Positions 1,111-64,000 of a stretch of DNA of 64,000 nucleotides are shown piece after piece (within the stretch, counting starts at the first letter, position 1; each line of letters starts with the position of its first letter). The translations under genes and the position numbers were made by a program. The DNA comes from Negaprion brevirostris (Eukaryota), in contig JARDVH010000059.1 in the NCBI GenBank assembly GCA_030324005.1, positions 65,704,132 to 65,768,131 of the forward strand, read 5' to 3'. The notes under the pieces are model-generated. The model worked only from the letters and a program-made list of their open reading frames with translations, ran no database searches and was not told the origin of the DNA.

Positions 1111-1131
1111 TTCTTTCTTTCTTTCTTACAG

Positions 1132-17360: not shown

Positions 17361-17408
17361 ATTACAAGAAGCCATTATCTAGGCTGACCCGCTGACTCTG
17401 CTAAAGGG

Positions 17409-17982: not shown

Positions 17983-18075
17983 GTGACATTAAACATTTAA
18001 TTTATTACCAGATTTGTTTTGGTAGTTTCTTGATTTGTGTGTGCATTTCAGATGTTAAAATATTTTTTAATGCAG

Positions 18076-18207
18076 CAAAGGCACATTATGGCTGAGAGAA
18101 ATGTGTTGTTGAAAAATGCGAAACATCCCTTCCTGGTTGGGCTTCATTATTCATTCCAAACCACAGACAAGCTCTACTTTGTTCTGGATTTTGTTAATGG
18201 TGGAGAG
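18076..18207 (+). CDS. SGK3: SGK3 coding exon 8
   Basis: tgcAG|CAAAGG...GGAGAG|GTtagt; 132 nt, [44 protein letters not shown]. Confidence 0.96.
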
Positions 18208-18673
18208 GTTAGTATTTCTATTTGAAGCAGTTGACTACTACAAACAGGTAACACTGAACTGTGATCTGCTATGACACCAAAAGAAACAGATTTCAGTATG
18301 TTTTAACACTTTAGAAAATTGATACTAATGTTAAAATGAAAAGACAAAAACAGACTACTGAAAGCTACTTGTGGGTAATTACATATAATAACTACTTCCT
18401 GTTTATTTTGATTTTGTTTTCTTTTCCCTTTGTCATATGTAGCATCAGTGTAGCTAATTTGTTCCAAGTTCTGCACTGGTGTTACATTAAGTATGCAAAA
18501 AAAATGCACTTCCTTATTATAAGGCCACTCGTGTATTACAATGCAGCCACTTGCGTGTGAGGAAGCAGCTGGCCTCAGTTTAATATCTTTTCCATTTCCC
18601 TACCGGCATTTTTGATTTGAAACTCCTTTCACCCCGAAATGAAAAGTTAATTCCAGTAGTCAAAACGTTATGC

Positions 18674-18890
18674 ATTCCTTCTTGGCCTTTTGGCTAAGAT
18701 CAAATGTAGTTTTGGCATCCTGCACTTGATTGAAGTCATGGGGTTACTCTGAGGCTTCATTTGAAGCAATTTTTTAAAGCAGCATCTAGGCCTTTTGGCT
18801 TAGGTGCAAATGAGATCGAGCCTTGGAGAAGGTGCAATGCCTGCTCTGTGAGAAACACAGCTCACAGTTAAACAATTTAGTCAAGTCAAG
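18674..18890 (+). mobile_element. U2 snRNA-headed interspersed repeat (candidate SINE), copy 1
   Basis: 18674-18710 matches U2 nt 1-37 at 33/37; second U2 module at ~18785-18805; 3' hairpin CTGTGAG/CTCACAG, then a (TCAAG)2 tail; possible TSD GTTATG; colinear with copy at 63849. Confidence 0.75.
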
Positions 18891-20612
18891 TTATGAAGGA
18901 GCAAGATTTTTATTTAACTTTCTTGCAAGACCAGGTGTCCAACAAAATAGGCACACCTTACATCGATTTGCAGCACATTTTTATACTTTTTTACAAGCAT
19001 TGTAATGGCTNNNNNNNNNNNNNNNNNNNNNNNNNNNNNNNNNNNNNNNNNNNNNNNNNNNNNNNNNNNNNNNNNNNNNNNNNNNNNNNNNNNNNNNNNN
19101 NNNNNNNNNNATAATGTGGGTTATCAATGTGCCTGGCTATATCCGGTCTACCTAACTCTAAGCTATTTCTCTATGCTGTACAGATATGTGTTAACAGCAT
19201 CTTTACCTATTGCTCACATGCTCCAATCAGCTTGGATTATATAGATTAGGCCCAAGACAGGAAGTGGTGAGCCTCTCTTGTCAGCTTGGATCTGGAATGC
19301 CTCACTTGCTGAGACTTAGAATTGGACTTTTATATATATCTAATTCAATGCAATCAAAAAAAATTATTTTCTGTGTTCTTCCACCCTTGAGTTTTGAGCT
19401 TTATAGTCTTGCCTATTTCTGTAGTCTGCTCCAAATCTCAGCACAACTATTTTTTTGTCCAACTTTTGCTACTAGCACATGCATCACTTTCTTCACCACA
19501 CCATTTGTAACTCTGTCTTCAGCTTTCCAACTCCTAACTTGTGGAATGTTCTGCAACCTTGCACCTCTCTATCTCATTCATTGGCTTAAAAAGTGCTGTT
19601 TGCTATTTACTCCTTTGACCCAGCTTTTAATCATCTAGAATCGTATTTTCTGTTTGGGCTCTGTCAATTTTTGTAAGATAATACTCTTTTGAAGCACTTG
19701 TTATGATCCCGGAAAAGACCAATAACTTTAAATAAGAGATTTTATTTCCCAAATGACTGAAAGGGTCATATGTTAAGATTCAAATTTGAAGACTTTTACT
19801 GTTTACTGTACTAAAGCAACATCAACTAAACGCCATTTAAGGGCAACAATACTCTAAACTACAGCAAAGACATCCCCCCATTTCTTAATGACTAAAAAAC
19901 CCATGCCATAGATAAAATTTATTGCCTGCTGTCCGCAGAGTTTACAGTCTTTATGGGAAACAGTTACTCCCAGCTTCCAATAGGTTCGCTTCTCACTGTT
20001 TCATTGAGTCTCAAAAGATTTTCCAGCTTTTCCCACCAGTGGGATCTTGCAGTACCGCTGAAGGCAAGCCTCTGCAGCAGGGCAGGCAAACTTTGGCAGG
20101 ACAGAAACATCCCACTGCTGCCAATGACTCTACTGCCAGAAAACATCAGGGCTGGGGGTGGAGGAATCCCACCTGTCCGTCTGTCCACAATGTTGAGTGA
20201 TTGTCGAAATGTCTTTCTCTCAATTTCCAAAGAAGTTCCAAACCAACTGCCAGTAGTTAGACTTGCTCTGCCAATTCTTGGCCACGCTAGGACAAATCTT
20301 TCAGATTGCTTAGATCGCCAAGGGATGCATCTCTTCAACAGAAACCATCTTTCCTCTCGTATCTTGCCTTGTTGTCTACAGAAAAGACATACTCTGCTGT
20401 ACTGATTATACCAGCTACACCTCTCTGTGAGAACTCCCCTCTCTGTATCTCTTTCTGTCTGAAATTTCAGCAATAAAGTGTGCCACAGCTGTTTTTACCT
20501 TTGTTGTAGGTGTGAACATTTTACATGGTGATTGGGGGACCAAGCAAGATGATAACTAAGCCACCTGACTTCTTGTCAGGCAGAACTTATAACTGATTAC
20601 ATGACCCTCCAT

Positions 20613-20891
20613 TCATTGAATCCCTACAGTGTGGAAGAGGCCATTTGACCCGTCGAGTTTGCACCAACTCTTTGAAAATGCACCTGACCCCACCTTNNNN
20701 NNNNNCCCCACACATTGATCATGGCCAATCCACCTAACCTGTACATCTTTGGACTGTGGCAGGAAGGCAGAGCAACCAGAGGAAACCCACCCAGACACGG
20801 AGAACATGCAGACTCCACAGACAGTCACCAAGGCTGGAATTGAAACCAGGTCCCTGGCGCTGTGAGGCAGCAGTGCTAACCATTGTGCCAC
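20613..20891 (-). mobile_element. HE1-like tRNA V-SINE, near full length
   Basis: Head gtggcacaatggttagcactgctgcctcacagcgccagggacc; CR1-like tail; CCCTCCA flanks both sides (possible TSD). Confidence 0.85.
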
Positions 20892-21655
20892 CCTCCACTT
20901 TATCCTGAATTAAAGCAGCAAAACAGTCCAGGGGCCACACGCAGCCCATCAGGGTTCAAAGTGAGACCCATGAGACATTCTTGATGTTGCCCACATGCAG
21001 AATTGCCACATTCTGCTGTTTTCCATCTGCATAGCATTTTTCCTACTGGTAAGACCAAAATTATATGCACGTATAGCAAGAGCATGTGAAGTGGTGATGA
21101 TTGCACACAACAATCAGCCATATGCTCCCTCTGTCCAATCAAACGTAAATATTTAATTTTTAACACTTGAAATTGATAGTTCCATTAATATAAACGATTA
21201 AGCATTTTCTATCAATTAAGAAATATTCACTGTGTATTAAATGTATCAATCTTATTCGAGGGTCATAGTTAGTGAACATGCCCGTTTTTAATCCTGCGGC
21301 CTGCTGAGATGAAGAGGGCCACTCATGCGGCCCACTTGCTAGCCAAGGTTGTCCATCACTAAATCAAAAGTATAGTAATTAAACATAATTATCTTAAAAC
21401 CTCACGCGCAACACATCATAGACTGTTCTACTACATTAAAGGCATAATAATGCAAGATGATACAATGTCACTGTAAGTACTGTTCACGTGAAACCTTCCC
21501 TCTCTGTGTATAAGCCATGATTAATTTGTCTGTTTAAAAAGTGGCAGCACATGTACTAACGAATTTAAAACAAAAATGTTTCTTCTTAGTTCCTGGAAAG
21601 TTTGTGCTGTATTTAAGCATCATGAGTTAATGTACTTACCCTGAACTATTTTCAG

Positions 21656-21768
21656 TTGTTCTTCCATCTACAAAGGGAGCGATGCTTCCCAGAAGACAGA
21701 GCCAGATTTTATGCTGCAGAAATGGCCAGTGCACTGGGATATTTGCATTCACTCAACATTGTTTACAG
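21656..21768 (+). CDS. SGK3: SGK3 coding exon 9
   Basis: ttcAG|TTGTTC...TACAG|GTatcc; 113 nt, [37 protein letters not shown](R). Confidence 0.96.
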
Positions 21769-22338
21769 GTATCCTATTTTTCTAAACTTAATGTAAATCA
21801 TTACAGTCCGCTATAAATAATGCATTATCAGTACAAGCTTTTCATTGTAAAATTAAAATTATATTGTACAATTATATATATATCAATGCACAATACTATC
21901 AAGTGATTGCTTGATCTTCCAACTCAAGCCGAGTGTGATCTGGACACTGTCTCTGGGGCCTAGTATTAAGGGCTGTAGAGTCTTGGGTATGTAAATGTAA
22001 ACCAGGTAAGTTTAAAATTCCTTGACACGGCAGGGAGAGGTATATAAGATAAGGGGTAGGACTTTCTTGTGGGGGGAACAGGAGGAAGAGTGTCAGGTTG
22101 GGCTTGGGTCTTGGTCTTGGTGTTGGGGGAGGGCGGGGAGGGGCAGGGGCAGGGCAGGGCTGGGCCAGGTCGGGCCTTGGAGAAGGGATGATGGGTTGGA
22201 GTCAAACGTGGATAGAAGATTGGTTGACAAATAGGAGNNNNNNNNNNNNNNNNNNNNNNNNNNNNNNNNNNNNNNNNNNNNNNNNNNNNNNNNNNNNNNN
22301 NNNNNNNNNNNNNNNNNNNNNNNNNNNNNNNNNNNNNA

Positions 22339-22455
22339 GAGGGCGGGAGTGTGGAACTGAGCCACGACAGATCAGCCATGATCTCATTGAATGGCGGGGC
22401 AGGCTCGAAGGGCTGGATGGCCTACTCCTGCTCCTATTTCTTATGTTCTTATGTT
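22339..22455 (+). mobile_element. CR1 3' end
   Basis: gatcagccatgatctcattgaatggcggggcaggctcgaaggg...ttcttatgttcttatg. Confidence 0.8.
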
Positions 22456-23236
22456 GGAGGGGTTGGGTCAGGCATTAGTGAGAATGGGAGAGGAGAAAGA
22501 GCTCCATGGGGGTGGAGAGTTCCATTGGAATGAGAGGAATTCTGTTTGCTGGGAAATTCACATTCGGGGTTGTGATCCCTTGTGGGGTGAGTAGGTAGTG
22601 GGGGGTGATGGGGAGCCACGTGGGGTGTCTAGATGGTAGGGAAATGCCCTGGGTCAGGTCTATAAATAGTTATCCAGAAGCTAGAATTGGTTTTAATTAT
22701 TTTCATTGTTTCTACATAACCATTGATGTAATCAGGAAACATCTGATGTTTTGAGATTGAAATCACGTTTTTGGATGGCTCCCAGTGCAGGACAATAATC
22801 CATGGAAAGTTTGCTCTGTGCCAACTTTACCTATGAACCTTCAGGGAGGACTGGTATGGGTTCCTTTAGTGCACCTGCACCTTTGGGGTATGCTTGAAAT
22901 ACTACACCCTGGAGCTCAGAAGTTATGGCCCAATTTCTGAACAACTGTGGTCAGACCACTACAAGATGTTGGAAGTGTCACTAAATCAGTTTGATATTTG
23001 ATATTGTCTGATATTTTTGGCAGTGCTGTTGATGGTAGTGTTGCAGTGGCTGCATGTATATATTTATTGATCTGATTTGTTTGTACCAGAAGGAAACTGA
23101 GTCAGTTTTTTACATTTTAAATTTGATTAATCAATGATTTTTCCCAAATGTTCTCTCTTCAATTTTCTCACTACTTACTGCAGTATTAAATTACATGCTG
23201 TTTGACTTGATATTAATTTATTTCCTTTTATAATAG

Positions 23237-23273
23237 GGATTTGAAACCAGAAAATATCCTTTTAGACTCTCAG
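23237..23273 (+). CDS. SGK3: SGK3 coding exon 10 (catalytic loop, 37-nt exon)
   Basis: aatAG|GGATTTG...TCTCAG|GTatgc; (R)DLKPENILLDSQ. Confidence 0.96.
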
Positions 23274-24649
23274 GTATGCACATGAATTTCCTATTAGTAA
23301 ACCAATATGCCACCCAACTTCTCTGTTCTTCTTTAAATGCTCAGACTGAACTCTTGCAATAATAACTTCAGTTTGATTCCTTAAGAAAACTGAAATAGGG
23401 GCCACTATTAAGCTCCATTTCTCAATATTAGTCTGTAATGTGGAAACAGAAATTAAGTAGAGCTATAGTGTTAGATGCAGTATTTTGATCAGTTTTAATG
23501 TAAATTTAAATGTTTCTCAACAAAAATTACAGACTACTTAGTGATGGTAAACATCAAATCCCATGGTGGTTTTTGGTGCAGATGATGCAATGGCATTGAC
23601 GGTGGTGGTATAACTGAAGGCAATGGCCATAAAATTCAGTGGGGCTTGAAAATAGACCTGGGGATTATGCTACACAAATAACCAACAGCTGCTATTTCAG
23701 GCAGCACTCAAACTTCAATGGTGCAGTGTACTGAAAAAGGCTGATGATGCTTAGTGCATTGGCAGGCTTGCCAGAAAGTCTGGTGTTAACATCAAGGAAC
23801 TTCGAGGTGTACATCATCAACCTTGTGCATAAAATTGCACAGAACTTAAAGCACATCCTTTCCAGCTCCAAGTCCATTACTACATTCGTAGGCCCAGTCA
23901 TGGTGCAGCATTTGATGGTGATGTGCCAACTTCCTTAAAGAATATGCCACCCAACTTCTCTGTTCTTCATTAAATGCTAAGACTGAACTCTTGCAATAGT
24001 AACTTCAGAAAAGTCCATGCATATTTTGGATGTGAAATTGCACTACATAAGTAGTCCACAAGGCACTGTGACACATCATCACTGTGCATACCAGTGTTTA
24101 ACAGTAATATTAGCTGTTCAACAGATTGTTAGGATGGCTGAAGCATTGCAGTGGAAGAATGGCAGTATCCTGAGGTGCATAAACCTCATTTTGAGTCCTC
24201 TCTGAAGATGGCAGAATTCATTTTTCCATACTGCCACTACACCAGGCATCTTTGCCTGTCAGCTAGCTAACCAATACTGTTATTGTCCGTAGTGAGATGC
24301 TGCAAAATGCAGCTGGAACTTCTAGGCCAGAGTTGAGCAAGGCCATCTGTATCAAAGTCAGCAGTCTTCCACTGACCATGCTGCAGCCACTGGAGCAGCA
24401 TTGCATAGGATGACTAGGACAGGCAAAGATACACCAAAGAGGGCACTAAGGGAATGCTCCAGAGTGATTAGTTGACTTTTGTCTGGAATATTGGATTGTT
24501 TGATAAGGTTTATTTGGAATGTTGTGGTGGAATTTATTTCAGTGTTGCAAACAAGTAGACACTCCAATGATCAATAATGGGGGAAAATAAATGGTAAGAT
24601 TGGTGAATGGGAAATTGAAGTTGAATTCGCTGGCACTAGAGTCAGATGA

Positions 24650-25010
24650 CTTGATCATTGATGGCCCAGTATGTTGATTGCATCCTTCTCGCTGTGCCTA
24701 TCCTCCACCCCACGCTCTACCCTGATATCACCAGTCCCGTCGCTCTGTCCCTAGTTCCTTGCCCCAGGTCTTGCATGCATGCAACTCACATGCATGGGTT
24801 CCCACAGAGTTATGCCCTATGTGGGAAGCATTTAGCCCTTGGTGCCAGTACCATTCTGTGGTTTCTTGGGGGTCAAGTCCTGAAGATACAGAAGATGCAA
24901 AGAATGAAGGCATGATGAATGTTGTCAAAATGCTGGGTGTTGACCTGCCTGATGTGCTGAATGTGGGTTACACACCAACTGGACATTGAGGAAGTTTAGC
25001 CCTTTGCAGT
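24650..25010 (-). mobile_element. PIF/Harbinger transposase fossil
   Basis: Minus-strand FLNVQLVCN..[frameshift]..HIRQVNTQHFDNIHHAFIL resembles the Harbinger DDE segment (NVQLVCD...PGSxHDAFIL). Confidence 0.55.
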
Positions 25011-25049
25011 TGCAGTATATCTCAGAATTGACATCACTTTACAGGCTCT

Positions 25050-25204
25050 GCATGTATGTCTGATCGAACTCTCCATTCGCCTGACGAAGAGGGTAACCTC
25101 GAAAGCTAGTGAATTTACTATCAAATAAATCAGTTGGACTTAAACCTGGTGTGGTCAGACTTTTTACTGTGTTTACCCCAGTCCAACACCGGCATATCCA
25201 CATC
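25050..25204 (+). mobile_element. Penelope-like element terminal (pLTR) fragment
   Basis: Hammerhead core followed by caaataaa...gttggact...aacctggtgt...ccacatc tail shared with 16117, 17409, 46640 and 47814. Confidence 0.6.
25075..25114 (+). ncRNA. Minimal type I hammerhead ribozyme motif within a Penelope-like pLTR fragment
   Basis: ATTCGC-CTGACGA-A-GAGG(GTAA)CCTC-GAAA-GC-TA-GTGAAT: stem I, conserved core, stem II with GNRA loop, and palindromic AGCT in place of stem III. Confidence 0.65.
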
Positions 25205-25387
25205 AATGCACCTTAAACCATGAGGAAGCCTTTTATCATGGTGAAAGTCGAACAGTCATTCCACTTGCTTCCCTTTGTTAAAAAAACACATGCAGTGTTC
25301 TCCCTTCTCTTCACATATGCAGCATCAGTGATGCAACTGTGGTCAGACAACTACAAGATGTTGGAAATGTCACTAATCCAGTTTGAT

Positions 25388-25605
25388 AGGAGCCTGACAC
25401 ACCCTCAGTCAGCTCTGAGGCTTGAGTACTGCTTGCAAGAGGTGGCAGATTTCAGTAAGTACTTCTTTAATGAAACAGATATCACATTCATTTCATTCTG
25501 CCACAGCAAGGATCAAAGAATTTGCCTGCAACTCTGGTTGGATGAGGAGCCTGACACACCCTCAGTCAGCTCTGAGGCTTGAGTACTGCTTGCAAGAGGT
25601 GGCAG
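25388..25605 (+). repeat. Exact 61-bp direct repeat (25388-25448, 25545-25605)
   Basis: aggagcctgacacaccctcagtcagctctgaggcttgagtactgcttgcaagaggtggcag occurs twice. Confidence 0.9.
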
Positions 25606-26194
25606 CTAGTCCTTCTCTGCGACACTGATGTTTTTCTTGTCATGTGACAAACCAAGGGTAATACACTACAGAACCCATGGTTTGAGAGCAAGTGATCTGT
25701 GCAAAACTCTTCCAGTAAAAAAACAATATCTTTAGCCATATACAACACCTCTCCCTGTTATCTTTGCCTCCTCCTAAGGGACTCGGCAAACTTCCAAATA
25801 CTACTAGCTCAGCATGAACCAGTAGAAATCAATCAGCAATTTAACTCCCAAACATATAATCGATCCATTTAAAGAGTGCTGGTTCATCAATTGAGCACAT
25901 CAATGGCACAAGATTAACATACGAACATATGAATTGAGAGCAGGAGTAGGCCATTCAGACTTTTGAACCTCTCCATCGTTCAAAATTTGTATCTAATTCA
26001 TAGTCCCCACAAGAGAGACATACAAGATCCAAGCTGACAAGAAAAGGCATTGCACCCCATCTTGGGCTTGATCCGATGCCAAAATTATCTCAAAAGGTTG
26101 CCATTTTGCTCTAGACTTTGCCTGTTCTTCTTGTGGTAGTTGTTGTACGGTATTGGTTAATATTTGATACGTCTGAAGAAATCTTCACAGTCAC

Positions 26195-26406
26195 ATGCTG
26201 GAAATCTGAAATAAAAGCACAAAATACTGGATAAACTCAGCAGGTCTGGCAGCATCTGTGGAGACTAAAAACAGGGTTAACGTTTTGAATCCAAATGACT
26301 CTTTTACAGAGCAGTTCTGTAGAATAGCCATATGGACGCAAAACATTAATTCTGTTTGTCTCTCCATATATGCTGCCAGACCTGTTGAGTTTATCCAGCA
26401 TTTTTC
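26195..26406. mobile_element. Fold-back Penelope-like fragment (second family)
   Basis: ~90-bp imperfect inverted arms (ctggataaactcagcaggtctggcagcat / atgctgccagacctgttgagtttatccag); near-TSD ATCTTCACAGTCAC/ATCTTTACAGTCAT. Confidence 0.6.
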
Positions 26407-27345
26407 ATCTTTACAGTCATACGTAGGCCTACCATTGTATTTTATTAACTCTTAGAACTGTGTACAAATATACTGGTAAAGGGTACTAGCTAGGAGCTGT
26501 CTCCATGCTTGCTGGTCCACAAGGCACTGTCCAACACCAGAATGACCCCAGCTGTGGGTCACCTGCTCTCGCATCACTGTGTGGACAGTACTGTTATTTC
26601 ACAATAACCACCATATATATATCAGATCAAATTTTTTTTGCAAAAAATGTATTTTATTTGTAAAATATCTCATCGAATGTTGCAAATGTTTCAAAGTGGC
26701 CATCACACAAAGTGCAGTAATATTCAGATTTGCTAGATACATCATATTGCACTTGATGCTTCGATACTATTGTGGGTGTGCCAGACCCAAATTCTGGAGT
26801 GATCTCTGCCTCTGGCAACAGCGTACCCACAATGCCATCTAATATAGCGCACTTCAGAAAAGTCCATGCATATTTTGGATGTGAAATTGCATTGCATAAC
26901 TGAATTTTGCACCAATTACCTATCTGTCCATAGTTCGCATAAAGCGTAAATGCTTTTACAATAATTAAGCAATAAGAATATGGGGGTCATTAGTGGCTCA
27001 ATGTTATGAATATTTCCTATCATCATTTAAGTACATATTTGTCTGTGCTTGCCAGTTTACTTTAACATTGCAATTTTTGAAGCTTCTAGCCAACGTTTGA
27101 AAGTAAATGGTCACTTGTGTTAATTGCTGGAGTGGTTACCAGGTTATTGAAATTATAGTTTGATTATTTGATTGTTTACATTTTAAATAAATTTGTAAAT
27201 GCTATAAACTCAAAAGAAAATGTTGCAAACTCTGAGCGGGTTACTCAGCATCTGTAAAGAGGCAAGTGAATGGAAAGAGCCTTCCTCAGAACTCGGGAAA
27301 GTTTTTACACCCAAATGTTACCCTGACTTCTGCTACAGATGGTGA

Positions 27346-27558
<213 letters not shown>

Positions 27559-27649
27559 TGACATGTAATTTAGATCTGTTTTACCGTATTTAGTGATTTG
27601 CATGAAAATCTTTATTTTGCGATGCAGGTTAAATATACGTGTAGAACAT

Positions 27650-28375
27650 TTATAGCACAGGATGAGGTAATTCAGCCCATCATGTCTCTGCCAGCTCAAT
27701 GCAAGAGCAATACACCTCAAACCATTTCCCAGCTTTTGCCTATAGCCCTGCATTTTTTTTCCTTTTCAGATAATTAATCAACTCTCTTTTGAAGGCCATA
27801 ATAGAATGTACCTCCAACAAAATCGGGCAGTGCATTTCAGATTCTAACCATGACTTAGTTTTTTAGAAATGGTTTCCTCATCACCATTTTGTTTTTGCCT
27901 ATCATTTTAATTAAGTGACATCAGTTTCTCAATCCTTCCACCAATAGGAAAAGTTTCATCTTCTTTCCCCTATCCAAACCCTTCATGATTTTGAGCACTT
28001 CTATCAAATTTCCTCTCTGCTCTAAGTAAAACAACCTTAGTTTCTCCAGTAACTGATGTTCCTCATCCCTGGAACTCGTGAATTTTTTCTTCACCTTCTA
28101 ATGTCCAAATACACTACATCAACAACATTTTCCCCTTAGTAACCCTCCTGGGTACCTCATCAGAATACTCTATCAAATTATTTAAATGTGATGTTTCTTT
28201 AACAAATTACTGCTTTGTCCACAATTTTCCACATGACACTTAATTTTGTCCCAGATTATAGCTTTGAAAAACTTTCTCATCAATTGGGTTAAACTGACTG
28301 GTTTGTAGTTTCTGAACTTGGCCGTACTCCCCTTTTTGAACAAGCGAGTTGCAATTTGAAATTCCCCAGGCCTTC
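27650..28375 (-). mobile_element. CR1 LINE 3' fragments
   Basis: cccttcatgattttgagcacttctatcaaat; gttaaactgactggtttgtagtt. Confidence 0.65.
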
Positions 28376-29299
28376 TGAGAGAGAGGGAATGCCACTGCTT
28401 TCTTCTGACAGTTCAGACAGCGACTGCTTATATTTTAAAAATTAAACTGAAACAGCATTTCTTCCTTGCAAGCTTAGCTCCTCCCATTAACCATATAACT
28501 CTGTACACCTAGCTGGAGATCCCTGGAGACCCTAAATAAAAGGTCCATTAACTCTACGAAGGAATGCATCCCTAGCTAAAATCAATTATTAGCTTGCATT
28601 CTTTGTGTCTGCTACATGTTTACCAGATAATCAACTCTTGTAGCAAAACAATGCCTCTTTAAATACAAAATACAGTGAAGTGGCACGGTACCATCTTACT
28701 GTGGCCTGAATTTTACACTACCTCCCCTCCTACCTAAGCAGGTTTTGAGATGGGTGGGGAATGCTGAAATTGGATGGGATTCCTTCATGGGNNNNNNNNN
28801 NCTTCCAAGTGCAGATGGATTGCCCCTTGTTCTTTCCATTATTAACCTAAACCTTTTTAATACTGTGGTCACTGCCCTCTAAATATTCCTTCTATCGTCA
28901 CCGATCCACCAATCTCAGTCCACAGAACCAGATCATGAAATGCTTCCTTCCTTGTTGGACCAGAAACATAGCGTAGAAAGTTACCTTGAACACATTCATA
29001 AGTTATTCCTCCTCTTTACCCTTTACATTATTACTTTCCAGGTCTATATTGCGATCATTAAAACTCCCCACTTAAATTACTTATGGTTTTTGCACCTCCC
29101 TGTAATTCCTGAGCAAATTTACTTCTCTATATCTTTCCTACTAGTTTGCAGCCTATTGAATACAGTATAATGGTAAATTTTCCTTGTATTCAGAATTAGT
29201 TACTAACCAGTCCTTCTATCAAACCTTATCTCCATTCTCATCGCAAAATCATATTCCCATGTGTACACCTATGCAAAAAGCTCACCACCTTATCANNNN

Positions 29300-30330
29300 N
29301 NNNNNGGCTCCATGGATTTATATATATGCATTATAAACTTAATTTGGACTTATTTCATTTCTCTTTTAGTCCATCTGATGTCTTGCTGTTTCTTTTTCTA
29401 AGTCTTTATGTAGTCTGTGTCTCTTAATCCTTTGTGCACCTTGTTTTTCCTTTCTAATGTTTTGCTGTAGTTCCCATCATCTTGTAAAGTTTGTTTAAAC
29501 CATCAGACCCCTATAGCACAAGCAAACCACTCTACAAGGCCATTGGTCCCAGTCTTGAGTTGCAATATGTTCAGCTTGTATGATTCCCACTTCCCCAGAA
29601 ACAGTCCCATTGCCCCAAAAATCAGTAGCCCTCCTTCCTTTACGATATATCCATCCAAGCATCTATAGTCACTTGCATATGGCACTGGGAGTAATCAGAA
29701 GATTACAACCTTTTGAGGTGGTGCTTGCTAGTCTCCTTCCTAGTTTCCTAAAATATGCCTCTGGTAGTCGTTCTTCCCTCACCACCACCTCTCCTTTCAG
29801 AGTGCTTAGCAGCTGCTCAATGTTAACCTTGATCCTAACATCAGGAAAGCAGTGTGCCATGCTGGATTTGTCTGCAATCACAGAAATGCCTGTTTTTTAC
29901 CCCTGAGTATAGAATTCCTACTATTGCTTTCCCATCTTCTTCATGCCCCCACCCCCTAGCCGGTCGTGGTGCCATGGATTTGGTCTGGCTGCACTCCCCA
30001 GAGAAACCATCACTGTCACCAGTGCACAGAACTGAGTTTTGGTGAGAAAACACAATGCACTCATGTAACTCTTACACTCCATGCCTGGTCCTTGTCTACC
30101 TAGTCACCCATTTCCTCAATGCCTGTATTTTCTTAAACTGCAGGGTGAGCATATCCAGAACCATGGTATCCATTACATTCTCAATCTCACAGAAGAATGG
30201 CAGTGGCTCCAGCTCTGAAACCAGGGCTCAGCTGTTCCAACTGCTGACAATTCCTGCTCATGTGGTTGTTCAGAATCTGAGAAGCATCCTGGAATTCCCA
30301 CATGGGTAAGAATATGCCATTCGACAGGAT
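29300..30330 (-). mobile_element. CR1 ORF1 (zinc knuckle/esterase) fossil
   Basis: Minus-strand HCFPDVRIKVNIEQL..KGE and AIVGI peptides; counterpart of the + copy at 35380. Confidence 0.6.
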
Positions 30331-31539
30331 GAAATGCCCACCACGGCTCTGTTTATTGGAATATTAACGGGCTTAACAGAAATAACCCTAATTTTTAAAT
30401 TAATAAAGGCTCACCAGCTACTTGCCTTTAGCTGCTTTCCTTGTCCTATATAACTTGCATGTTTTTACTTGTCTTATTATTGATATACTTATGATTTACT
30501 GAAAAATTCAGAATCATTAATGTTGTTATTTAAACTTTATCTTCCTACATTTGATTAACTTATTAAATATTTATTGCAATCGATAAATTATCAAAGTGGC
30601 TTTAGTTTAGATACCAAATAATTTATTTAATCTTACTTTATTAATCTAAATTTAATGAAAAATTTGCTCACACCAAGTGACTTCTGTGCTGTAATGTAAC
30701 TTTGCAATTTATCCCTGCTGTGTTTTTAGGCTGCCTTTTGTCCTTGCTGTGTTGTCAGGCTAAATCTATTGACCACAGTGAAAATTGTTTGGGTGTGAAT
30801 GAGCAAAGATTCGTGGATGGATCTCCATTTCTTTTGGGATGGGTGCACTGCATGATGTTGACCATTTAAAATATTTGGTGAATCATCAAGCCTGTCAGTT
30901 GAAGCAAAATGGATAACTGAAGTGAAGATGCAATGTGGCAACAGAACACAATTTTAAAAGAATAACTTGGGAACTTGAAATTTTCCTTTATAAAAAGTGG
31001 ATAAATGCCTATATTCCATTGTAGTTGAGAATGTGCCTTTTAAAATGAGTAAATTTTGAGATTCAAATTTATATGAATCATTTAATTAAGGACAAAAATT
31101 AGCATTGTCTTTTTTCATTTTTTTAATAAGAACTTTGACCTCATGAGTACAATACTTTGGTCTGACATTCCCTCTATAAATAGTGAAGAACCAGTGCAAT
31201 CTAATTAAACACTCCCTACATAATCTACTATTTGAAGGATCCAATGGTTAACTCAGGATTTAATCAGGATGCTTCTGTCAGATTTTATATTTAGCTTACT
31301 GTGGGGAAATATTGGCCAATTTAACATGTTTAGTCCTTCCCCATACCAATTAGTTTCATGTGTATCTTTATAATGGACCTGAAAGATGGAGTGGAATATG
31401 GGCATGAGTTCAGCCCATTCCAAAACATTAAATCTTGAACTGGAGAAAACAATTGATTAATGATAACAAATCCATGATGAGGGTGTATTTCAATAAGAGG
31501 AAACAGCATTCTGGTAACTGTTTATTTCTTATATTTCAG

Positions 31540-31635
31540 TACCTTGCACCAGAAGTGCTCAAAAAACAACCTTATGATAATACAGTTGACTGGTGGTGTC
31601 TTGGCTCTGTTCTGTTTGAAATGCTGTATGGCCTG
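31540..31635 (+). CDS. SGK3: SGK3 coding exon 12
   Basis: ttcAG|TACCTT...GGCCTG|GTatgt; 96 nt, [32 protein letters not shown]. Confidence 0.96.
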
Positions 31636-31710
31636 GTATGTAATCTAGCTTGCGTAATCGGGTATTTTATTGAGCGCGTATCATACATTTTGAATCAAAT
31701 ATTCCACAAT

Positions 31711-31806
31711 TGGCAGCATGGTGGTTAGCACTGTTGCTTCACAGCTTCAGGGACCTAGGTTCAATTCCCAGCTTGGGTCACTGTCTGTGTGGAGTCTGCA
31801 CGTTCT
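31711..31806 (+). mobile_element. HE1-like SINE head, runs into gap
   Basis: ggcagcatggtggttagcactgttgcttcacagcttcagggacctaggttcaattcc. Confidence 0.8.
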
Positions 31807-32659
31807 NNNNNNNNNNNNNNNNNNNNNNNNNNNNNNNNNNNNNNNNNNNNNNNNNNNNNNNNNNNNNNNNNNNNNNNNNNNNNNNNNNNNNNNNNNNNNN
31901 NNNNNNGGAACAAAATGAGGGCAGTCCCATTTTGCTGGTCAGGAAAGACATTGGATGATGGTGTGATCAGCAATGCTGAAGTCTTAAAAAAATTAAGGAA
32001 ATAAAAATATTTATAATACACCATGATCTTTGCCACAAATGAAATCTTTCTGATTTTGCTTAGGACAAGTTTGACACTGTAAGCAGGGTGGAAACTTGAT
32101 TATGTGGTTCACTGGTGGGCTTTTTGTAGAGGATGATGGTCCTTTGGAAAGGGTGGAGAATAAAATTTCTCCAATGGAAAACAGATTTTCTGTGAAACTA
32201 ATTGTATTGTTGCTGATTGGAATTTAAAGTTATCGTATGAAACACAGCACCAGAGATAAAAAAAAGTTATGCTGAACACATCTATTGCTAATTGTATTGC
32301 TTTATTTAGAGAAAGATGACCTCAAATCAAATGTTGGCAGTCAGAGTATAAGTGTGAATAGTGATCAGATCTTTATTGTACTTCCTTTACTAATCTTTAG
32401 AAATAGTAATTATTTTGAGCACTTCTAAAAATAGTTATTTCCTTAACCTTTATAGCAATGGAAACTTCTTTATTTGGTGTACTTTCTGGACATTATTAAG
32501 ATGAATTTTTGACTTATTTTCAAAGAAAACTTCAGTAAATTGATCATTGGTAATTTCGACAATAGCCTCAAGGTTCCTCATTTTTAAAAAAATACAAACT
32601 CTGCCTTCAGTTGGTTATTTAATACTCCATTTCAAGAATGGACTGGAGGATTAATCTAT

Positions 32660-33565
32660 TAACGAATGATTAGCAAGTTTGCAGACAACGCAAATGTTGG
32701 TGGAATTGCGGATAGTAATGAGGACCATCAGAGGATACAATGGGATTTAAATCGGTTGGAGACTTGGGCAGAGAGGTGATAGATGGAATTTAATCCAGAC
32801 AAATGTGAGGCAGTGCATTTTGAAGGGTCTAATACAGATGGGAAATATACAGTAAATGGCAGAAACCTTAAGAGTATTGATAGGCAGACAGATCTGGGAG
32901 TACAGGTATACAGGTCACTGAAAGTGGCAATGCAGGTGGAAAAGGTAGTCAAGAAGGCATACGGCATGTTTGCCTTCATCGGCTGGGACACTGAGTTTAA
33001 AAATTGGTAAAGTCATGTTGCAGCTTTATAGAATCTTAGTTAGGCCGCACTTGAAATATAGTGTTCAATTCTGGTTGCCACATTACCAGAAGGATGTGGA
33101 GGCTTTGGAGAGGTACAGAAAAGATTTACCAGGATGTTGCCTGGTATGGAGGGCATTGAGGAGAGGTTGGAGAAACTTGATTTGTTCTCACTGGAAAGAG
33201 GTTGAGGGGTGACCTGATAGAAATCTACAAGATTATGAGGGGCGTGGATAGAATGAATTACCAAAAACTTTTTCCCAGGGTAGCTGATTCAATTACTAGG
33301 GGCATAGATTTAAGGTGTGAAGGGCAAGGTTTAAAGGAGATGTACGAGGCAAGTATTTTTTACACAGAGGGTGGTGGGTGTCTGGAACTCATCACTGGGG
33401 CAGGTAGTGGAAGCAGATACGATAGTGATTTTTAACGGGCATCTTGACAATTACATGAATAGGATGGGACTGGAGGGATATGGTCCCAGGAAGAATAGAG
33501 AGTNNNNNNNNNNGCTTGGTCGGCCAAAGGGCCTTTTCCTGTGCTGTAATTTTCTTTGTTCTTTG
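32660..33565 (+). mobile_element. CR1/HER1-type LINE 3' part
   Basis: MEFNPDKCEAVHF; LYRILVRPHLKYSVQFW; LRGDLIEIYKIM. Confidence 0.9.
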
Positions 33566-34222
33566 GATAGATATTTGTTTGTGATCAAGAACTAAAGCAG
33601 ACATGATTGGCACAATGTTCACTTTCTGTGCTGTTAAATGGTTCTATAGACAATATATCTGGTATGAAAAATGGTAAGAATATTAGCTGAAAAGGAACAG
33701 CACTATAATTAACATTAAAACTTGATGACAGGGAGAACTTTGTTCCTTCTTGTAGCTGCTCCAATCAGGAGATTGCTTGTCTTGGTACTTCCCATGACTA
33801 ACTTATGTGTGAGCTCCCAGGATCCCAGACTCTTCACAGGTGACTGATCATGTGTCTTATACATGGCATGGCTGTGCCCTGATTGTGTGGCACACTTTGG
33901 TGATATCCACCTTCTGAGCCATTCTCCTACTACTTAGTAGTGTCCCTCGCACTCACCAGCCATTGTCAGTCTACAATTTACATTTGTAGGGGTGATGTCC
34001 CCACAACACAGCCAAAGCTAATTGGCCTCCTCACTTAGATTTTTGCATGATGTCAAGTCAGGATCCTGGAGTATGGTCACTGGTAAGCGTAACCAACCAT
34101 CTGGAATTATGAGTTAAAGTTGAAGAGTTGTAAAACATCATTCCCCTACCCATAAACCCTTTTAATCTGAGTATGTGGCTTGACAAGGGATCAAGGGATC
34201 TAGACCTCACAAATATCATAGA

Positions 34223-34540
34223 GTGGCATGGTAGCACAGTGGTTAGTACTGCTGCTTCACACCTCCAGGGACCTGGGTTCGATTCCTGGCTTGGGTCACT
34301 GTCTGTGTAGAGTCTGCGTGGGCTTCCTCCGGGTACTCCGGTTTCCTCCCACAGTCCAAAGATGTGCGGGTTAGGTTGATTGGCTATGCCAAAAGTTGCC
34401 CTGAGATGCGTAGGTTAGAGGGATTAGTGGGTAAATATGTAGGGATATGGGGGTCGGGCCTGGGTGGGATTGTGGTCGGTGCAGAGTCAATGGGCCAAAT
34501 GATCTCTTTCTGCACTGTAGGGGATTCTATGATTCTACGA
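34223..34540 (+). mobile_element. HE1-like tRNA V-SINE, near full length
   Basis: tRNA head, ccggtttcctcccacagtccaaagatgtg V domain and gattctatgattcta tail. Confidence 0.88.
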
Positions 34541-35083
34541 ATAAATTAAATAGAATGAAGTCCATTGTTTTCAGACTACTGTATATTGCATTCAATAATG
34601 TAGTCCATAGTACTCACACTTTAGAACTCAAATCCTGTCATGGCCATTTGTAAAAATTGACTAGCACAAGAAAAGCTGACTATAAAGCAGACAGATTTTT
34701 ATTAAAAATACAACTTGTTGATTACTTCATGGAAAGGATGCTGCCACTCTTACTTGGTCTAGTTGTTGTGATTCTACTTCATATTGTATGATTGGCTGTT
34801 AATGTTCTCCAATCTATATATGGTATTGGAAGCAGCTATAATATTCCACAGCAGAAAAAATAACTTGCATATCACTCTGGTAATCAGTCATGGGGGTCTA
34901 TGTCTAAAGTGACATAATTTGGTAAAGATACTAACTGCTTCCCTTAATGCCTGGGATATTCTGTACAGAGCCCAGAGAACAAATGAATTTCTGAGAGAAA
35001 GCAAAAATATTTTTTGAGTGGATAACAACAAATTGATTCAAAGGAAAATAAATAATTCAGAAAAACAATTTTTCTTTTTGCAG

Positions 35084-35239
35084 CCTCCTTTCTACAGTCG
35101 TGATACTGCTGAGATGTATGAATATATCCTTCACAAGCCATTGCATCTGAGACCTGGGGCAAGTAATGAAGCCTGTTCAATCCTGGAAGGTCTACTTGAA
35201 AAAGACAGGCAGAAAAGATTAGGAGCAAAGGAAGATTTT
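35084..35239 (+). CDS. SGK3: SGK3 coding exon 13 (PY motif PPFY)
   Basis: tgcAG|CCTCCT...GATTTT|GTaaga; 156 nt, [52 protein letters not shown]. Confidence 0.96.
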
Positions 35240-35379
35240 GTAAGAAGTTCTTGTAAATCCTTGAAATCATGCACCATTTTCTAGCATTTAGGATTATAAA
35301 CAAGGTTCTTCCTAACTCATAATATCTTGTACATCATAACAGCATTTAGTTTTGTAAGAAATAGTTTTTAAGCGTATGG

Positions 35380-36480
35380 TATGGCAGGTCAGTTTGGCTG
35401 AGAGAAATGTGCAGTCTGCGGTATGTGGGGAGTCATGGACTCACCATGCCTCCTAGTCGAACGCATCTGCAGGAAGTGTCAATGGCTGAGGAAGCGCGAG
35501 CTCCAGGTTTTTCTGAACTTGAGCAGTGGCTGGAATCATTGTTGGATATCTTAGAGCTATGTGGTTGACACATTTAGGGAAGTGGTCACACTGCAGATTA
35601 ACAGCATGCAGGCAGAGTGGAATGGGTGACCGCCTAGCAGTCTGAGATCCAGGCAGGTGGTGCAGGATCCCTTGAGTCTATCTTGCTTGCTAATGGATTT
35701 CCATTTTAGATACAGGTGAAGGTGATTGCTCCTTGGGGAAGTGCAGTTGGAATCAAGCCTGTGGTACCATCGGTGGCTCAGCTGCACGTTAAGGAAGGAA
35801 AAAGAATAGAAGATCAATCATGACAGAGGATTCCATAATTACAGGATCTGACAGGTGTTTCTGTGGCAATAAATGTGACTAGGATGGTGTGTTTTTTCCC
35901 CCCCAAGTGTCAGGGTCAGAGATGTCATGGAGCAGCTGCAGGACATTATTCTGGGGAGAGTGAAAAGCCAGAGGCCATGGTCCACATTTGTACTAATGAC
36001 ATAGACAACATAAGGTCCTGAAAGCAGATTTTAGGGAGTTAAGAAGGAAGTTAAAAACCTAAAGAACAGTGATGTCGGTATTAATTCCAATGCCACATGC
36101 TAATGAGCATAGGAATGGGAGGACTGAGCAATTGAACATTGGAGAATTGCTGTGGGAAGGAGAGCATATGGTTTCTGAGGCATTGTGACCTGTACGAGCT
36201 AAACAGGGTAAGATCTTAACAGATCTGGGACTAATATCCTCACAGGGAAATTTGCTACAGCTGTGGGATAAGCTTGGCTTTAAATTAGCTTGTTAGGGAG
36301 GTGGGAATCTGAAGACTAATCTGGAGAATAGTAAATTAATTGATGGAGTAAGGGGGAAAAAGTAATGTAGTCTAAATTAGGGTCATATAACATGTATGTG
36401 AATGCACAGAGTATAGATTAGGGAGTGACAGGCGCAGATTGCCATGTGGGATTATGATGTTGTGACAATAATGGAGACAT
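35380..36480 (+). mobile_element. CR1 ORF1 fossil (zinc finger plus SGNH esterase) running into the start of ORF2
   Basis: CAVCGM..CRKC; DSIITGSDRCFCG; VHICTNDID motifs of the CR1 ORF1 esterase, with stops and frameshifts. Confidence 0.7.
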
Positions 36481-36814
36481 GAACAAATTTACATGTAGAC
36501 TTTAAAGATCAAATAATTATCTGGCAAGTGGTTTATAGCCTGGTTTTTTGGTGATAATTTTCAAAATCCTCCTTGCAATGCCTAATCTAAATTTATTCAC
36601 AAATGTGTTGTGAAATTGAGAGTTGATATACTGATGTGAAAATTAACCTTCACTCTTGGACCATGGTTCTGAAGTAGTCTTTCCCTATAGCTGGATTTAA
36701 GTTCCAAATAGGGTCCTACAAACAGCAAGCAGTTCCCTTTTTTTTAAGTATAGTATCCGAAAGGCATATTAGCCAAGATGTTGGAAGGATTCTCTATCCT
36801 TTAAATACTTCTCA

Positions 36815-37270
36815 GAATCATAGAATGGTTACAGCATGGAGGAGGCCATTTGGCCCATATCTGTGCTGGGTCTCTGAATGAGCAACTCCTCTAATGCCAC
36901 TTCCTCACCTTCTCCCTGTAGCCCTTCACGTCCTTCATGATCAGATAGTCTGAGATCCCTTTTGAATGCCTCAATTGAATCTGCTTCTACCCCATTCAGG
37001 CCAGTGCTTTCTGGATCCTTATCAGTCACTGCGTGGAATAGATTTTTGACATGTTATCGCTGCTGCTCTCGCCAATTACCTTAAATTTGTTCCTCTTGTT
37101 TGTAATCCTTCTGCCAATGGGAACAATTCTTCCCTATTTACTGTATCCATAACCCTCATGATTTTGAATATTGCTATCAAACCTCCACTTAACCTTCTCT
37201 TTTTCAAGGAAACCAGTCCTAACATCTTGGAATTATCTATCTAACTGAAGTTATATCCATGGGATCTTTG
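36815..37270 (-). mobile_element. CR1 3' fragment
   Basis: atcatagaatggttacagcatggaggaggccatttggccc tail. Confidence 0.75.
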
Positions 37271-37993
37271 CACCATAGCTTACAGATCCAATCTTTCTTT
37301 CTTCCTTGCACTCCTTCTTTCTTTCCTTTTGATTACTAAGAAATCCAAAGTGTAATATCCTCCAATTTCCTATATGGCGGTGTTACTCATCAGAAATGCC
37401 TAACGAAAAACTGACTCACNNNNNNNNNNNNNNNNNNNNNNNNNNNNNNNNNNNNNNNNNNNNNNNNNNNNNNNNNNNNNNNNNNNNNNNNNNNNNNNNN
37501 NNNNNNNNNNNNNNNNNNNCAAAGTGCTCACATACCTTCAAGTCTAACACCTGGCCTGGTTCATTACCCAGACCAAATCTGCATGGTTTGTTGGTTCAAT
37601 GTGCATTGGGTTTCTATTTTGGATTTTTTTTGAAAATTTAGCTGCAGACATGATCCCCACCCACTCATTTTTGGAAATTAGGCTTCAGCCCAGGACCTCT
37701 GACAATGTACATGCCCTTTATAGTGTACTTAAGTTTTAATCCAGATTGTATACCCATTCTTGAAAAGATGACTGATCCAACAGCAAAAATGACCAACAAC
37801 CTTTGAACATATAAACTCAGCTATTATGCTTCCCGTGTAAAATAATTTAGAGACACTTAGGCCCAGTTTTTTGCCAAATGGGAGCTTCAGTATCTGGACT
37901 TGCATCTTAAAGATAGCCAGTTGAGCTAGTTACCAAATTTATATTATTCTGTGTGTTTAGTACTAATATGCCTTTGTGTATAAATGTTCTTAA

Positions 37994-38167
<174 letters not shown>

Positions 38168-38250
38168 TAAATACTACTAAATATCAGGATACTGCAAACT
38201 GTATGCAATGTTGTTTTGTGAGTATGTGACAGTAATATTTGTGTTTTCAG

Positions 38251-38421
38251 GCTGGACCTGAAGATTTACAAAACTTTGACCCAGAATTCACGGAAGAACA
38301 GGTTCCTCAATCTATTTGTCGATCTCCTGACCGCTCAATAGTTAATGCTAGTGTTTTAGAAGCTGATGATGCATTTATTGGCTTTTCTTATGCCCCACCA
38401 ATTGAAGATTCATTCTTATAA
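38251..38421 (+). CDS. SGK3: SGK3 last coding exon (hydrophobic motif, stop)
   Basis: ttcAG|GCTGGA...TTCTTATAA; [56 protein letters not shown]; FIGFSY is the mTORC2 hydrophobic motif. Confidence 0.97.
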
Positions 38422-63654: not shown

Positions 63655-63848
63655 TTATCTGTATTGGAGTTTAAAAGAATGGGAGGTGATCTTATTGAAA
63701 CATACAATTCTGAGGGGGCTTAATAAAGTAGATAATAAGGGATTTTCCTCTTTAGGGTTGTGGTGTATCCAGAACTACCAGCTAGACCGGTTCAGACTAA
63801 GTGTCTCCCGTTTAATACGGTCATGAGTAGGAATTTCTTCTCTGAGGA
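63655..63848 (+). mobile_element. CR1 3' fragment interrupted by the U2-headed repeat
   Basis: ttggagtttaaaagaatgggaggtgatcttattgaaacata...aggaatttcttctctgagg. Confidence 0.7.
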
Positions 63849-64000
63849 TTCTCAGCCTTTTGGCTAAGATCAAGTGTAGTGTCATCATGCTGTGCTTGGT
63901 TGAAGTCATTAGGTTACATTTCAGCTTCATTTGAAGCAATTTTTAAGAGCGGCATCTCGGCCTTTTGGCTAAGATGTAAATGAGATCAAGCCTTGGAGGA
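63849..64000 (+). mobile_element. U2 snRNA-headed interspersed repeat, copy 2 (cut by window end)
   Basis: 63849-63880 matches U2 nt 6-37 at 31/32; 63955-63975 is U2 nt 7-27 exactly; the following 120 nt are 96/120 identical to copy 1 without gaps. Confidence 0.75.

What the first reader, a model, noticed from the sequence alone, without database searches (positions are those of the whole stretch)
63849..64000. Second copy of the U2-headed repeat, inserted into a CR1 fossil
Seen: U2 nt 6-37 at 31/32 identity, followed by 120 nt that align gap-free to 18711-18830 at 96/120 identity (hand count). It abuts and interrupts a CR1 3' fragment (...aggaatttcttctctgagga|ttctcagcc...). The flanks are unrelated to those of copy 1. 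Inference: the copies arose by transposition rather than segmental duplication, the family postdates that CR1 copy, and ~20% pairwise divergence implies an old expansion.
Basis: partly seen in the sequence, partly recalled or inferred. Interest (0 to 1): 0.7.

Follow-up and report, generated by a model that had tools for sequence, protein, structure and literature searches.

The report
Shark repeat with U2 RNA head
A shark genome carries at least two scattered copies of a short, dead-looking jumping element that begins with the first ~37 bases of the U2 splicing RNA, a design the papers I could search describe only in crocodilians, but two copies and a fragment are too few to show how it moves.

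Summary
63849-63880 matches U2 nt 6-37 at 31/32, and the next 120 nt match copy 1 gap-free at 96/120. The left flanks are unrelated, and a CR1-type LINE piece stops dead at 63848. The host is an elasmobranch (SGK3 locus).

One correction: the 'hairpin and TCAAG tail' is not the repeat's 3' end. It is the end of a TG..CA LTR-like insert (18847-19218, 5-bp TSD) inside copy 1. Without it, copy 1 is ~308 nt: U2 head, 72-nt spacer, a second U2 5' stem, two ~52-nt hairpin units, a 3' block and A8. A related 92-nt fragment with a candidate 7-bp TSD lies at 26079-25988.

Best reading: a non-autonomous retroposon family built like crocodilian SINEU-1 and copied from a master by a LINE, probably Tx1/Keno-type (partner inferred, not found). 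The head ends within 1 nt of the Keno/Utopia site in U2.

Not obtained: sequence beyond 64000. CR1 resumption, a TSD and the 3' end of this copy are untested, so 'postdates the CR1' is likely but not shown. 'Old' is fair, but the 20% may include differences between masters. Repbase and Dfam could not be checked.

The parts
63663..63848 (+). 3' part of a CR1-type LINE ORF2, decayed; left flank of copy 2, ending abruptly at the head
   Evidence: 74-88% to sister pieces at 2106-2289, 7527-7596, 44675-44719 and 746-779; sisters run ~215-235 nt further; CR1 label recalled from the motif
63849..63880 (+). Copy 2 head: U2 snRNA nt 6-37 (stem-loop I through the branch-point recognition sequence)
   Evidence: 31/32 to the Rfam RF00004 consensus; the one change is a CpG-type transition
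63881..63952 (+). Copy 2 spacer, 72 nt, origin unknown; ends in a small hairpin and a T run
   Evidence: 75% gap-free to 18711-18782; no similarity to the 3' body or fragment 3
63955..63975 (+). Copy 2 inner U2 piece (nt 7-27, stem-loop I), 105 nt behind the first
   Evidence: 20/21 to its own head; 21/21 to the consensus; folds as a stem-loop
63984..64000 (+). 5' arm of hairpin unit A, cut by the window end
   Evidence: 63982-64000 is 17/19 to 18812-18830 and has the A-type arm, not the B-type
18674..18846 (+). Copy 1, 5' part: U2 head (nt 6-37 at 30/32; nt 1-5 at 3/5), spacer, inner U2 piece 18785-18805, start of unit A; in an SGK3 intron, sense strand
18847..19218 (-). LTR-like insert in copy 1 only: TG..CA ends, 8/9 terminal inverted repeat, 5-bp TSD (18842-18846 / 19219-19223), AATAAA ~68 nt from its minus-strand end; spans the N gap 19011-19110.
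   Evidence: (I18); true length unknown because of the gap
19224..19363 (+). Copy 1, 3' part: end of unit A, unit B (19242-19293), block shared with fragment 3 to 19327, AT-rich stretch, A8 at 19356-19363
   Evidence: unit A read across the insert aligns gap-free to fragment 3, 0 of 2000 shuffles as high; nhmmer E 5e-9
25988..26079 (-). Fragment 3: related element without head, one hairpin unit plus the 3' block; candidate 7-bp TSD at 26086-26080 and 25987-25981; followed by a CR1-type 3' tail
   Evidence: (score 74, 0 of 1000 shuffles)
1132..38418 (+). Host gene SGK3 (coding exons found); places the window in an elasmobranch; copy 2 lies ~25 kb past the last coding exon
   Evidence: last two exon blocks 89-100% to 5 of 5 shark and ray proteins, 55-81% to 8 of 8 bony-vertebrate proteins (15 of 120 listed proteins tested)

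Best explanation
63849-64000 is the 5' half of one copy of a short (~310 nt) non-autonomous retroposon family in a shark genome that works like crocodilian SINEU-1. A master locus carried two stacked U2 5' pieces in front of a body with two hairpin units. Its RNA was copied into new sites by the enzyme of a LINE through target-primed reverse transcription, and one copy landed in the 3' end of a CR1-type LINE. SHOWN: shared structure and junction register in two copies, unrelated left flanks, stacked U2 pieces, body continuity across a later insert, a related headless fragment. INFERRED: RNA-mediated movement (headless fragment with candidate TSD, A8 in copy 1, 5' ends differing by up to 5 nt, no terminal inverted repeats found); U2 pieces added by template switching onto U2 RNA; transcription from outside the element, since T runs argue against Pol III; a Tx1/Keno-clade partner; the hairpin as the partner's recognition signal. 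These copies look dead.
For: 152-nt gap-free diagonal that begins at the U2 5' end, with unrelated left flanks. One register across head and spacer points to a common master rather than two separate chimeras. Two U2 pieces 105 nt apart in both copies match the recurrent 5' addition described for SINEU-1 (PMC4494074). Fragment 3 lacks the head, shares the 3' block and has a 7-bp direct repeat 6 and 4 nt from the ends of homology. Copy 1 has five runs of 4 or more T and no A box under the strict pattern, as reported for SINEU. The body unit keeps 17 of 18 pairs between unit A and fragment 3 despite 13 differences in 48 nt, with 3 pairs changed on both sides (p 0.007 and 0.008 against random positions). 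Tx1-type repeats exist in whale shark and elephant shark, and Tx1-11_Crp carries a U2 head.
Against: Only 2 headed copies and 1 fragment were seen, all in this window. Five pattern scans of microbial and viral collections gave no true copy; those collections are not expected to hold shark DNA. No TSD was found for copy 1, and copy 2's right side is unseen. The 3' end is unsettled: homology with fragment 3 stops 29 nt before the A8, and fragment 3 has no A tail. A 7-bp repeat near two chosen ends is only modest evidence (my rough estimate is a few percent by chance). No partner LINE was found. The hairpin result rests on 3 sequences and probably one lineage event. It weakens when mismatch positions are held fixed (p 0.047 and 0.17), unit B alone is not unusually stable (z -0.6), and the whole 3' part folds like its shuffles (z 0.09). 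A 3' hairpin without a clear poly(A) would fit an L2/CR1-type partner as well (recalled).
Confidence: 0.6

Rival explanations
1. The master is an internally deleted Keno- or Utopia-type element still attached to the U2 gene it targeted. The head is the host gene's first 37-38 nt, transcription comes from the U2 promoter, and the inner U2 piece is a relic of a tandem insertion. This shares the family and retroposon parts of the best reading and differs in how the head arose.
For: Both heads end at U2 nt 37, within 1 nt of the Keno/Utopia site (3' flank starts at nt 39, PMC4640811; '37 nucleotides downstream', PMC6136364). Copy 1 may begin at U2 nt 1 (3 of 5 matches). A 7-nt match to the Keno 3' target lies 10 nt after copy 1's A8; 0.65% of background windows score as high for the 9-mer.
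Against: No U2 3' half follows copy 1 or fragment 3 (Rfam, E up to 10). The target-like match falls to 5.4% with the 20-mer, was noticed post hoc and is absent after fragment 3. Among 6 sister CR1 copies at or near the homologous site, 0 matched the 9-mer and 1 reached 5.4% with the 20-mer. The inner piece stops near nt 27, not 38. SINEU-3 also has a 32-nt U2 5' piece without a Keno insert.
Confidence: 0.2
2. Not a SINE-like family. These are 5'-truncated ends of an autonomous LINE's 3' UTR to which U2 pieces were added independently by template switching, like U6-L1 chimeras.
For: Fragment 3 is headless. The 41 nt right after the head are the most diverged part (68%). SINEU-2 gained heads many times independently.
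Against: Both copies join head to spacer in the same register over 152 nt without a gap, whereas independent additions in SINEU-2 vary by up to 22 nt. The inner U2 piece is shared too.
Confidence: 0.12
3. One chimeric U2 pseudogene was duplicated locally at the DNA level (segmental duplication or gene conversion over 45 kb).
For: Both headed copies lie in one window on the same strand; no copy outside the window was seen.
Against: Homology stops at the U2 5' end (29 of 150 upstream). Copy 1 is in an SGK3 intron and copy 2 against a LINE fragment. Fragment 3 is on the other strand with different flanks.
Confidence: 0.05
4. A functional variant U2 snRNA gene.
For: Stem-loop I can still pair. In copy 1 a T-rich stretch falls about where the Rfam model has the Sm site (44 nt against 47 model positions).
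Against: Both hits are below the gathering score and the middle of the model is not aligned. There is no shared upstream block. The heads show CpG-type decay, and copy 1 is broken by an insert.
Confidence: 0.02

Closest known systems
SINEU-1 (especially SINEU-1F, -1C/H) and SINEU-3 of crocodilians (Kojima 2015, PMC4494074; main text parts 1-4 of 5 read, figures and supplements not seen)
   Same: Short non-coding repeat with a U2-derived 5' head; stacked U2 pieces; under 500 nt; internal T runs; TSD hard to see; SINEU-3's 5' U2 piece is also 32 nt.
   Different: The host is an elasmobranch, while the paper found no SINEU outside crocodilians. The body has two hairpin units. Poly(A) is uncertain. 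No target preference or partner is shown. Sequence homology to SINEU bodies could not be tested.
Keno (Tx1 clade) and Utopia, U2-targeting non-LTR retrotransposons (PMC4640811 parts 1-2 of 5 read; PMC6136364 passages; Kojima and Fujiwara 2004 not seen)
   Same: The U2 sequence breaks at nt 37-38, their insertion site.
   Different: No ORF, no U2 3' half after the element, and the copies lie outside U2 gene arrays.
Tx1-11_Crp and other Tx1-Mar LINEs with snRNA heads (PMC4494074)
   Same: A U2 5' piece fixed at the 5' end of a retroelement.
   Different: Those are autonomous LINEs; this element is about 310 nt and non-coding.
snRNA-LINE chimeric retrocopies and 3'-truncated U2 pseudogenes (as summarised in PMC4494074 discussion)
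   Same: A short U2 5' piece joined to unrelated sequence by reverse transcription.
   Different: Those are one-off products; here two copies share the junction and the whole visible body.
Described chondrichthyan SINEs: CmiSINE, SacSINE1 (PMC5499810, abstract only); HE1 (recalled)
   Same: Short dispersed repeats of cartilaginous fishes.
   Different: Passage and search counts show no mention of snRNA in that paper (0 occurrences). No tRNA gene was found in the window. I did not compare sequences.

Membership tests
SINEU | 5' head derived from U1 or U2 snRNA | tested here: met
   U2 nt 6-37 at 31/32 and 30/32
SINEU | Copies share one structure (from a master, not separate chimeras) | tested here: met
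   152-nt gap-free diagonal in 2 of 2 headed copies; only the 5' half can be compared
SINEU | Recurrent 5' addition of snRNA pieces (SINEU-1) | tested here: met
   Second U2 piece 105 nt inside both copies; order of addition not shown
SINEU | Short (<500 nt) and non-coding | tested here: met
   Copy 1 is ~308-309 nt without the insert; length of copy 2 unseen
SINEU | 3' poly(A) tail | tested here: inconclusive
   A8 at 19356-19363 (10 such runs on this strand in 62,168 bases); none in fragment 3
SINEU | Internal T runs, no Pol III promoter | tested here: inconclusive
   Five T runs in copy 1 and no strict A box, but one loose B-box-like 9-mer in both copies (0.065 expected per 309 nt; patterns recalled)
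SINEU | High copy number | not testable with these tools
   No genome held. 2 copies in 62,168 bases is 32 per Mb (95% range 4-116), biased upward because the window was picked for them
SINEU | Target preference shared with a Tx1 partner | tested here: inconclusive
   Three different flanks; weak U2-target-like match after 1 of 2 visible 3' ends; no partner sequence available
SINEU | Homology to crocodilian SINEU-1/-2/-3 bodies | not testable with these tools
   No Repbase or Dfam; supplements of PMC4494074 not held
SINEU | Reported range: crocodilians only | tested here: not met
   Host is an elasmobranch. This lowers 'is a SINEU by descent', not 'works like SINEU'
Keno / Utopia | U2 broken at nt 38|39 on the 5' side | tested here: met
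   Heads end at nt 37, with nt 38 changed in both
Keno / Utopia | 3' flank is U2 nt 39 onward | tested here: not met
   No U2 hit in 19200-19700 or 25800-26300; copy 2 unseen
Keno / Utopia | Encodes reverse transcriptase and endonuclease | tested here: not met
   Copy 1 outside its insert is about 310 nt, too short for these domains
U2 snRNA gene | Full-length match at the Rfam gathering score, with upstream promoter | tested here: not met
   33.5 and 42.2 bits against 46; no shared upstream block
CR1 (left flank) | ORF2 C-terminal motif and short 3' UTR | tested here: inconclusive
   Motif matches sister copies; family name recalled, not returned by Pfam or the Atlas

The most novel reading that the evidence does not exclude
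Sharks hold an abundant retroposon family (tens of thousands of copies if the local density holds) that began as a shrunken Keno-type element inside a U2 gene, kept the gene's first 37-38 bases and its promoter as its source of transcripts, and is recognised by its partner through a conserved double hairpin. It would be the missing link between U2-targeting LINEs and U2-headed SINEs, arisen independently of crocodilian SINEU, and would give a route to the open question of how such elements are transcribed.
Probability: 0.2. Interest if true: 0.65.

Novelty: new variant of a known kind. Interest (0 to 1): 0.42.

Why it matters
snRNA-headed SINEs are described from crocodilians only in the papers I could search, and how they are transcribed is stated as open (PMC4494074). 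A second case in sharks would suggest that U2-headed retroposons arise repeatedly where Tx1/Keno-type LINEs occur. It would give a family in which the master locus, promoter and partner can be sought in many public shark genomes. It also matters for annotation: such copies can inflate U2 gene counts. This second copy is what turns a single odd U2 pseudogene into a probable family. The locus itself is most likely a dead repeat with no function.

Tried and rejected
No whole genome is held, and no sequence beyond 64000 was obtained. Run search for 59000-64000: 22 rows from 12 studies, no RNA holder listed. None was laid, so this is no evidence on expression, range or copy number.

Pattern scans for more copies: metagenomes 0 and 1. 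That one, L001, is a 23-nt chance match in a bacterial-looking contig with no further similarity. Viral contigs 0 and 0; prokaryote genomes 0.

Earlier scan notes: nothing by sequence or for this genome.

56679-56692 (14-nt match to the U2 stem, E 0.12) has no body around it: rejected. The nhmmer hit of the spacer at 42737-42669 (E 0.18): rejected. Spacer as a duplicate of the 3' body or of fragment 3: not supported (329-813 of 1000 shuffles as high). Fragment 3 extending 5' into the spacer: not supported (429 and 503 of 1000). TSD for copy 1: none convincing. U2-like target in the CR1: not supported. The spacer as a drifted U2 middle: only the position of a T run supports it (ATTTTT frequency 0.0013 per site); left open. 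Dating: 0.03-0.10 per lineage at 7e-10 per generation (PMC10587355 abstract) gives 4e7 to 1.5e8 generations, too crude to use; no date is claimed.

Full report
OBSERVATION. The counts hold. 63881-64000 matches 18711-18830 at 96 of 120 without a gap, and the diagonal extends back through the head: 82.7% over 150 nt, E 3e-40. Rfam finds U2 at both places, below the gathering score (33.5 and 42.2 bits against 46). From the printed alignment, the head of this copy matches U2 nt 6-37 at 31 of 32 and that of copy 1 at 30 of 32; two of the three changes are CpG-type transitions. Upstream the diagonal drops to 29 of 150, and the 300 nt before each head share nothing. The left flank, 63663-63848, is a decayed LINE ORF2 3' piece with several sisters in the window. 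It ends at the head, where two sisters continue ~215-235 nt. I call it CR1 from a recalled motif; Pfam and the Atlas did not name a sister copy.

HOST. The window holds SGK3. Its last two exon blocks are 89-100% identical to 5 of 5 shark and ray proteins and 55-81% to 8 of 8 bony-vertebrate proteins (15 of the 120 listed hits were tested). The host is an elasmobranch. Copy 1 is in an intron; copy 2 is ~25 kb past the last coding exon. No genome is held, and nothing past 64000 was seen.

ANATOMY, WITH A CORRECTION. Both copies carry a second U2 5' piece 105 nt behind the first (63955-63975; 18785-18805). 18847-19218 starts with TG and ends with CA, has an 8/9 terminal inverted repeat and a 5-bp TSD, and has AATAAA ~68 nt from its minus-strand end. 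It is an LTR-like insert across an N gap. Read without it, the body is continuous: unit A aligns gap-free to an independent fragment at 26079-25988 (0 of 2000 shuffles as high). Copy 1 is then ~308 nt: head, 72-nt spacer, inner U2 stem, unit A, unit B (A vs B: 11 of 2000 shuffles as high), a block shared with fragment 3 to 19327, and A8 at 19356-19363. Copy 2 should therefore end near 64120-64156. Fragment 3 has no head and one unit, and has a 7-bp direct repeat 6 and 4 nt from the ends of homology. That is a candidate TSD of modest weight. Copy 1 has no convincing TSD. The true 3' end is unsettled.

HAIRPIN. The ~52-nt unit folds as one long stem in all three versions. The consensus fold is -17.0 against -4.9 +/- 2.2 for column shuffles (0 of 1000), and single-sequence z is -2.4, -0.6 and -2.3. 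Taking the structure from fragment 3 alone, unit A keeps 17 of 18 pairs despite 13 differences in 48 nt, with three adjacent pairs changed on both sides. p is 0.007 and 0.008 against random positions, but 0.047 and 0.17 with positions fixed. The longer 3' region folds like its shuffles. This is suggestive of selection on RNA structure in master lineages, from three sequences only.

MECHANISM. The best reading (0.6) is a non-autonomous retroposon copied from a master and moved by a LINE. Shown: shared structure and register, unrelated left flanks, stacked U2 pieces, a headless relative. Inferred: an RNA intermediate, head gain by template switching onto U2 RNA, transcription from outside (five T runs, no strict A box, one loose B-box-like 9-mer), and a Tx1/Keno-type partner. 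Tx1 repeats are present in whale shark and elephant shark (PMC8455134 passage), and crocodilian Tx1-11_Crp has a U2 head. An L2/CR1-type partner is not excluded. The main rival (0.2) comes from the break point: both heads end at nt 37, within 1 nt of the Keno/Utopia site, so the master may be a shrunken Keno-type element with its U2 host end. Against it, no U2 3' half follows, and the target-like match after copy 1 is weak and post hoc (0.65% or 5.4% of background). Independent chimeras (0.12) fit the fixed register poorly, since SINEU-2 additions vary by up to 22 nt. Local duplication (0.05) and a functional U2 variant (0.02) are unlikely.

AGE AND ORDER. K2P is 0.21 over 152 nt but uneven: head 3 of 32, first spacer half 13 of 41, inner part 6 of 48 (post hoc p 0.009; head vs rest p 0.20). 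Part of the 20% may be difference between masters. In a slowly mutating lineage (7e-10 per generation, PMC10587355 abstract) even 3-6% is old, but I give no date. That this copy postdates the CR1 is likely and needs the right junction. CR1 is 21.8% of the whale shark genome, so the landing site shows no preference. Local density is 32 per Mb (95% range 4-116), biased upward by selection of the window.

COMPARISON AND NOVELTY. The closest system is SINEU (PMC4494074; text parts 1-4 of 5 read; figures not held; supplements unavailable, and they could bear on head lengths and body homology). It works like SINEU-1. Membership by descent is not shown, and the host lies outside the reported range. 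Also seen: PMC4640811 parts 1-2 of 5; passages of PMC4758252, PMC5381603, PMC7245038, PMC5786205, PMC6136364 and PMC8455134; abstracts of PMC5499810 and PMC10587355. Seven searches listed no paper on a U2-headed repeat in cartilaginous fishes. I saw 21 of 23 hits, 25 of 61 and 20 of 172, mostly as listings. The library lacks most subscription journals and Repbase Reports, so the family may already be named there. Two earlier scan notes from other genomes describe a U2 head on a LINE tail and spliced-leader-headed elements; they are unchecked leads, not support.

VERDICT. A real second copy of a probable U2-headed retroposon family in a shark; a new variant of a known kind, resting on two copies and one fragment. 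Interest 0.42. If the Keno-relic reading with high copy number holds (probability 0.2), interest 0.65.

Noticed in passing
window 18847-19218 (-): LTR-like insert with TG..CA ends and a 5-bp TSD inside copy 1, spanning an N gap; solo LTR or collapsed full element; no second copy in the window.
   Followed up: partly
window 26086-25900 (-): Fragment 3 sits directly before a ~65-nt CR1-type 3' tail; the right copy of its candidate TSD overlaps the start of that tail. Two of three family pieces thus touch CR1 3' regions, which is not beyond chance given CR1 abundance.
   Followed up: partly
window 17411-17543, with pieces at 16241-16289, 25059-25204, 46734-46913, 47841-47887: Palindromic repeat family (weak Rfam mir-3015 hit on both strands at 17420-17498, E 0.08); looks like a MITE-type inverted repeat.
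   Followed up: no
window 18781-18809 (+): In copy 1 the inner U2 piece has three changes from U2 and folds as a perfect 11-bp hairpin (-19.2 against -14.2 kcal/mol for copy 2).
   Followed up: partly
window 18769-18775 and 63939-63944 (+): A T run preceded by a small hairpin (21 identical nt in both copies) lies at about the distance of U2's Sm site from the head; the spacer may be a drifted U2 middle.
   Followed up: partly
window 42740-42540 (-): Looks like a Deu-domain SINE piece (recalled, not tested); gave the rejected E 0.18 hit to the spacer.
   Followed up: no
window 19365-19660 (+): Right flank of copy 1 looks like an L2-type 3' end (recalled, not tested); no sister found in the window.
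   Followed up: no
window 49835-49923 / 50025-50113; 23304-23371 / 23941-24008; 22942-22996 / 25334-25388; 25381-25448 / 25537-25605; 24002-24050 / 26851-26899: Short direct duplications at 92-97% identity, one of them flanking an N gap; possibly assembly or gap-filling artefacts.
   Followed up: no
window 49494-51028 (+): Pieces of a different LINE reverse transcriptase (Pfam ALKBH8_N hit at 50537-51028); Rex1/L2-like by recall.
   Followed up: no
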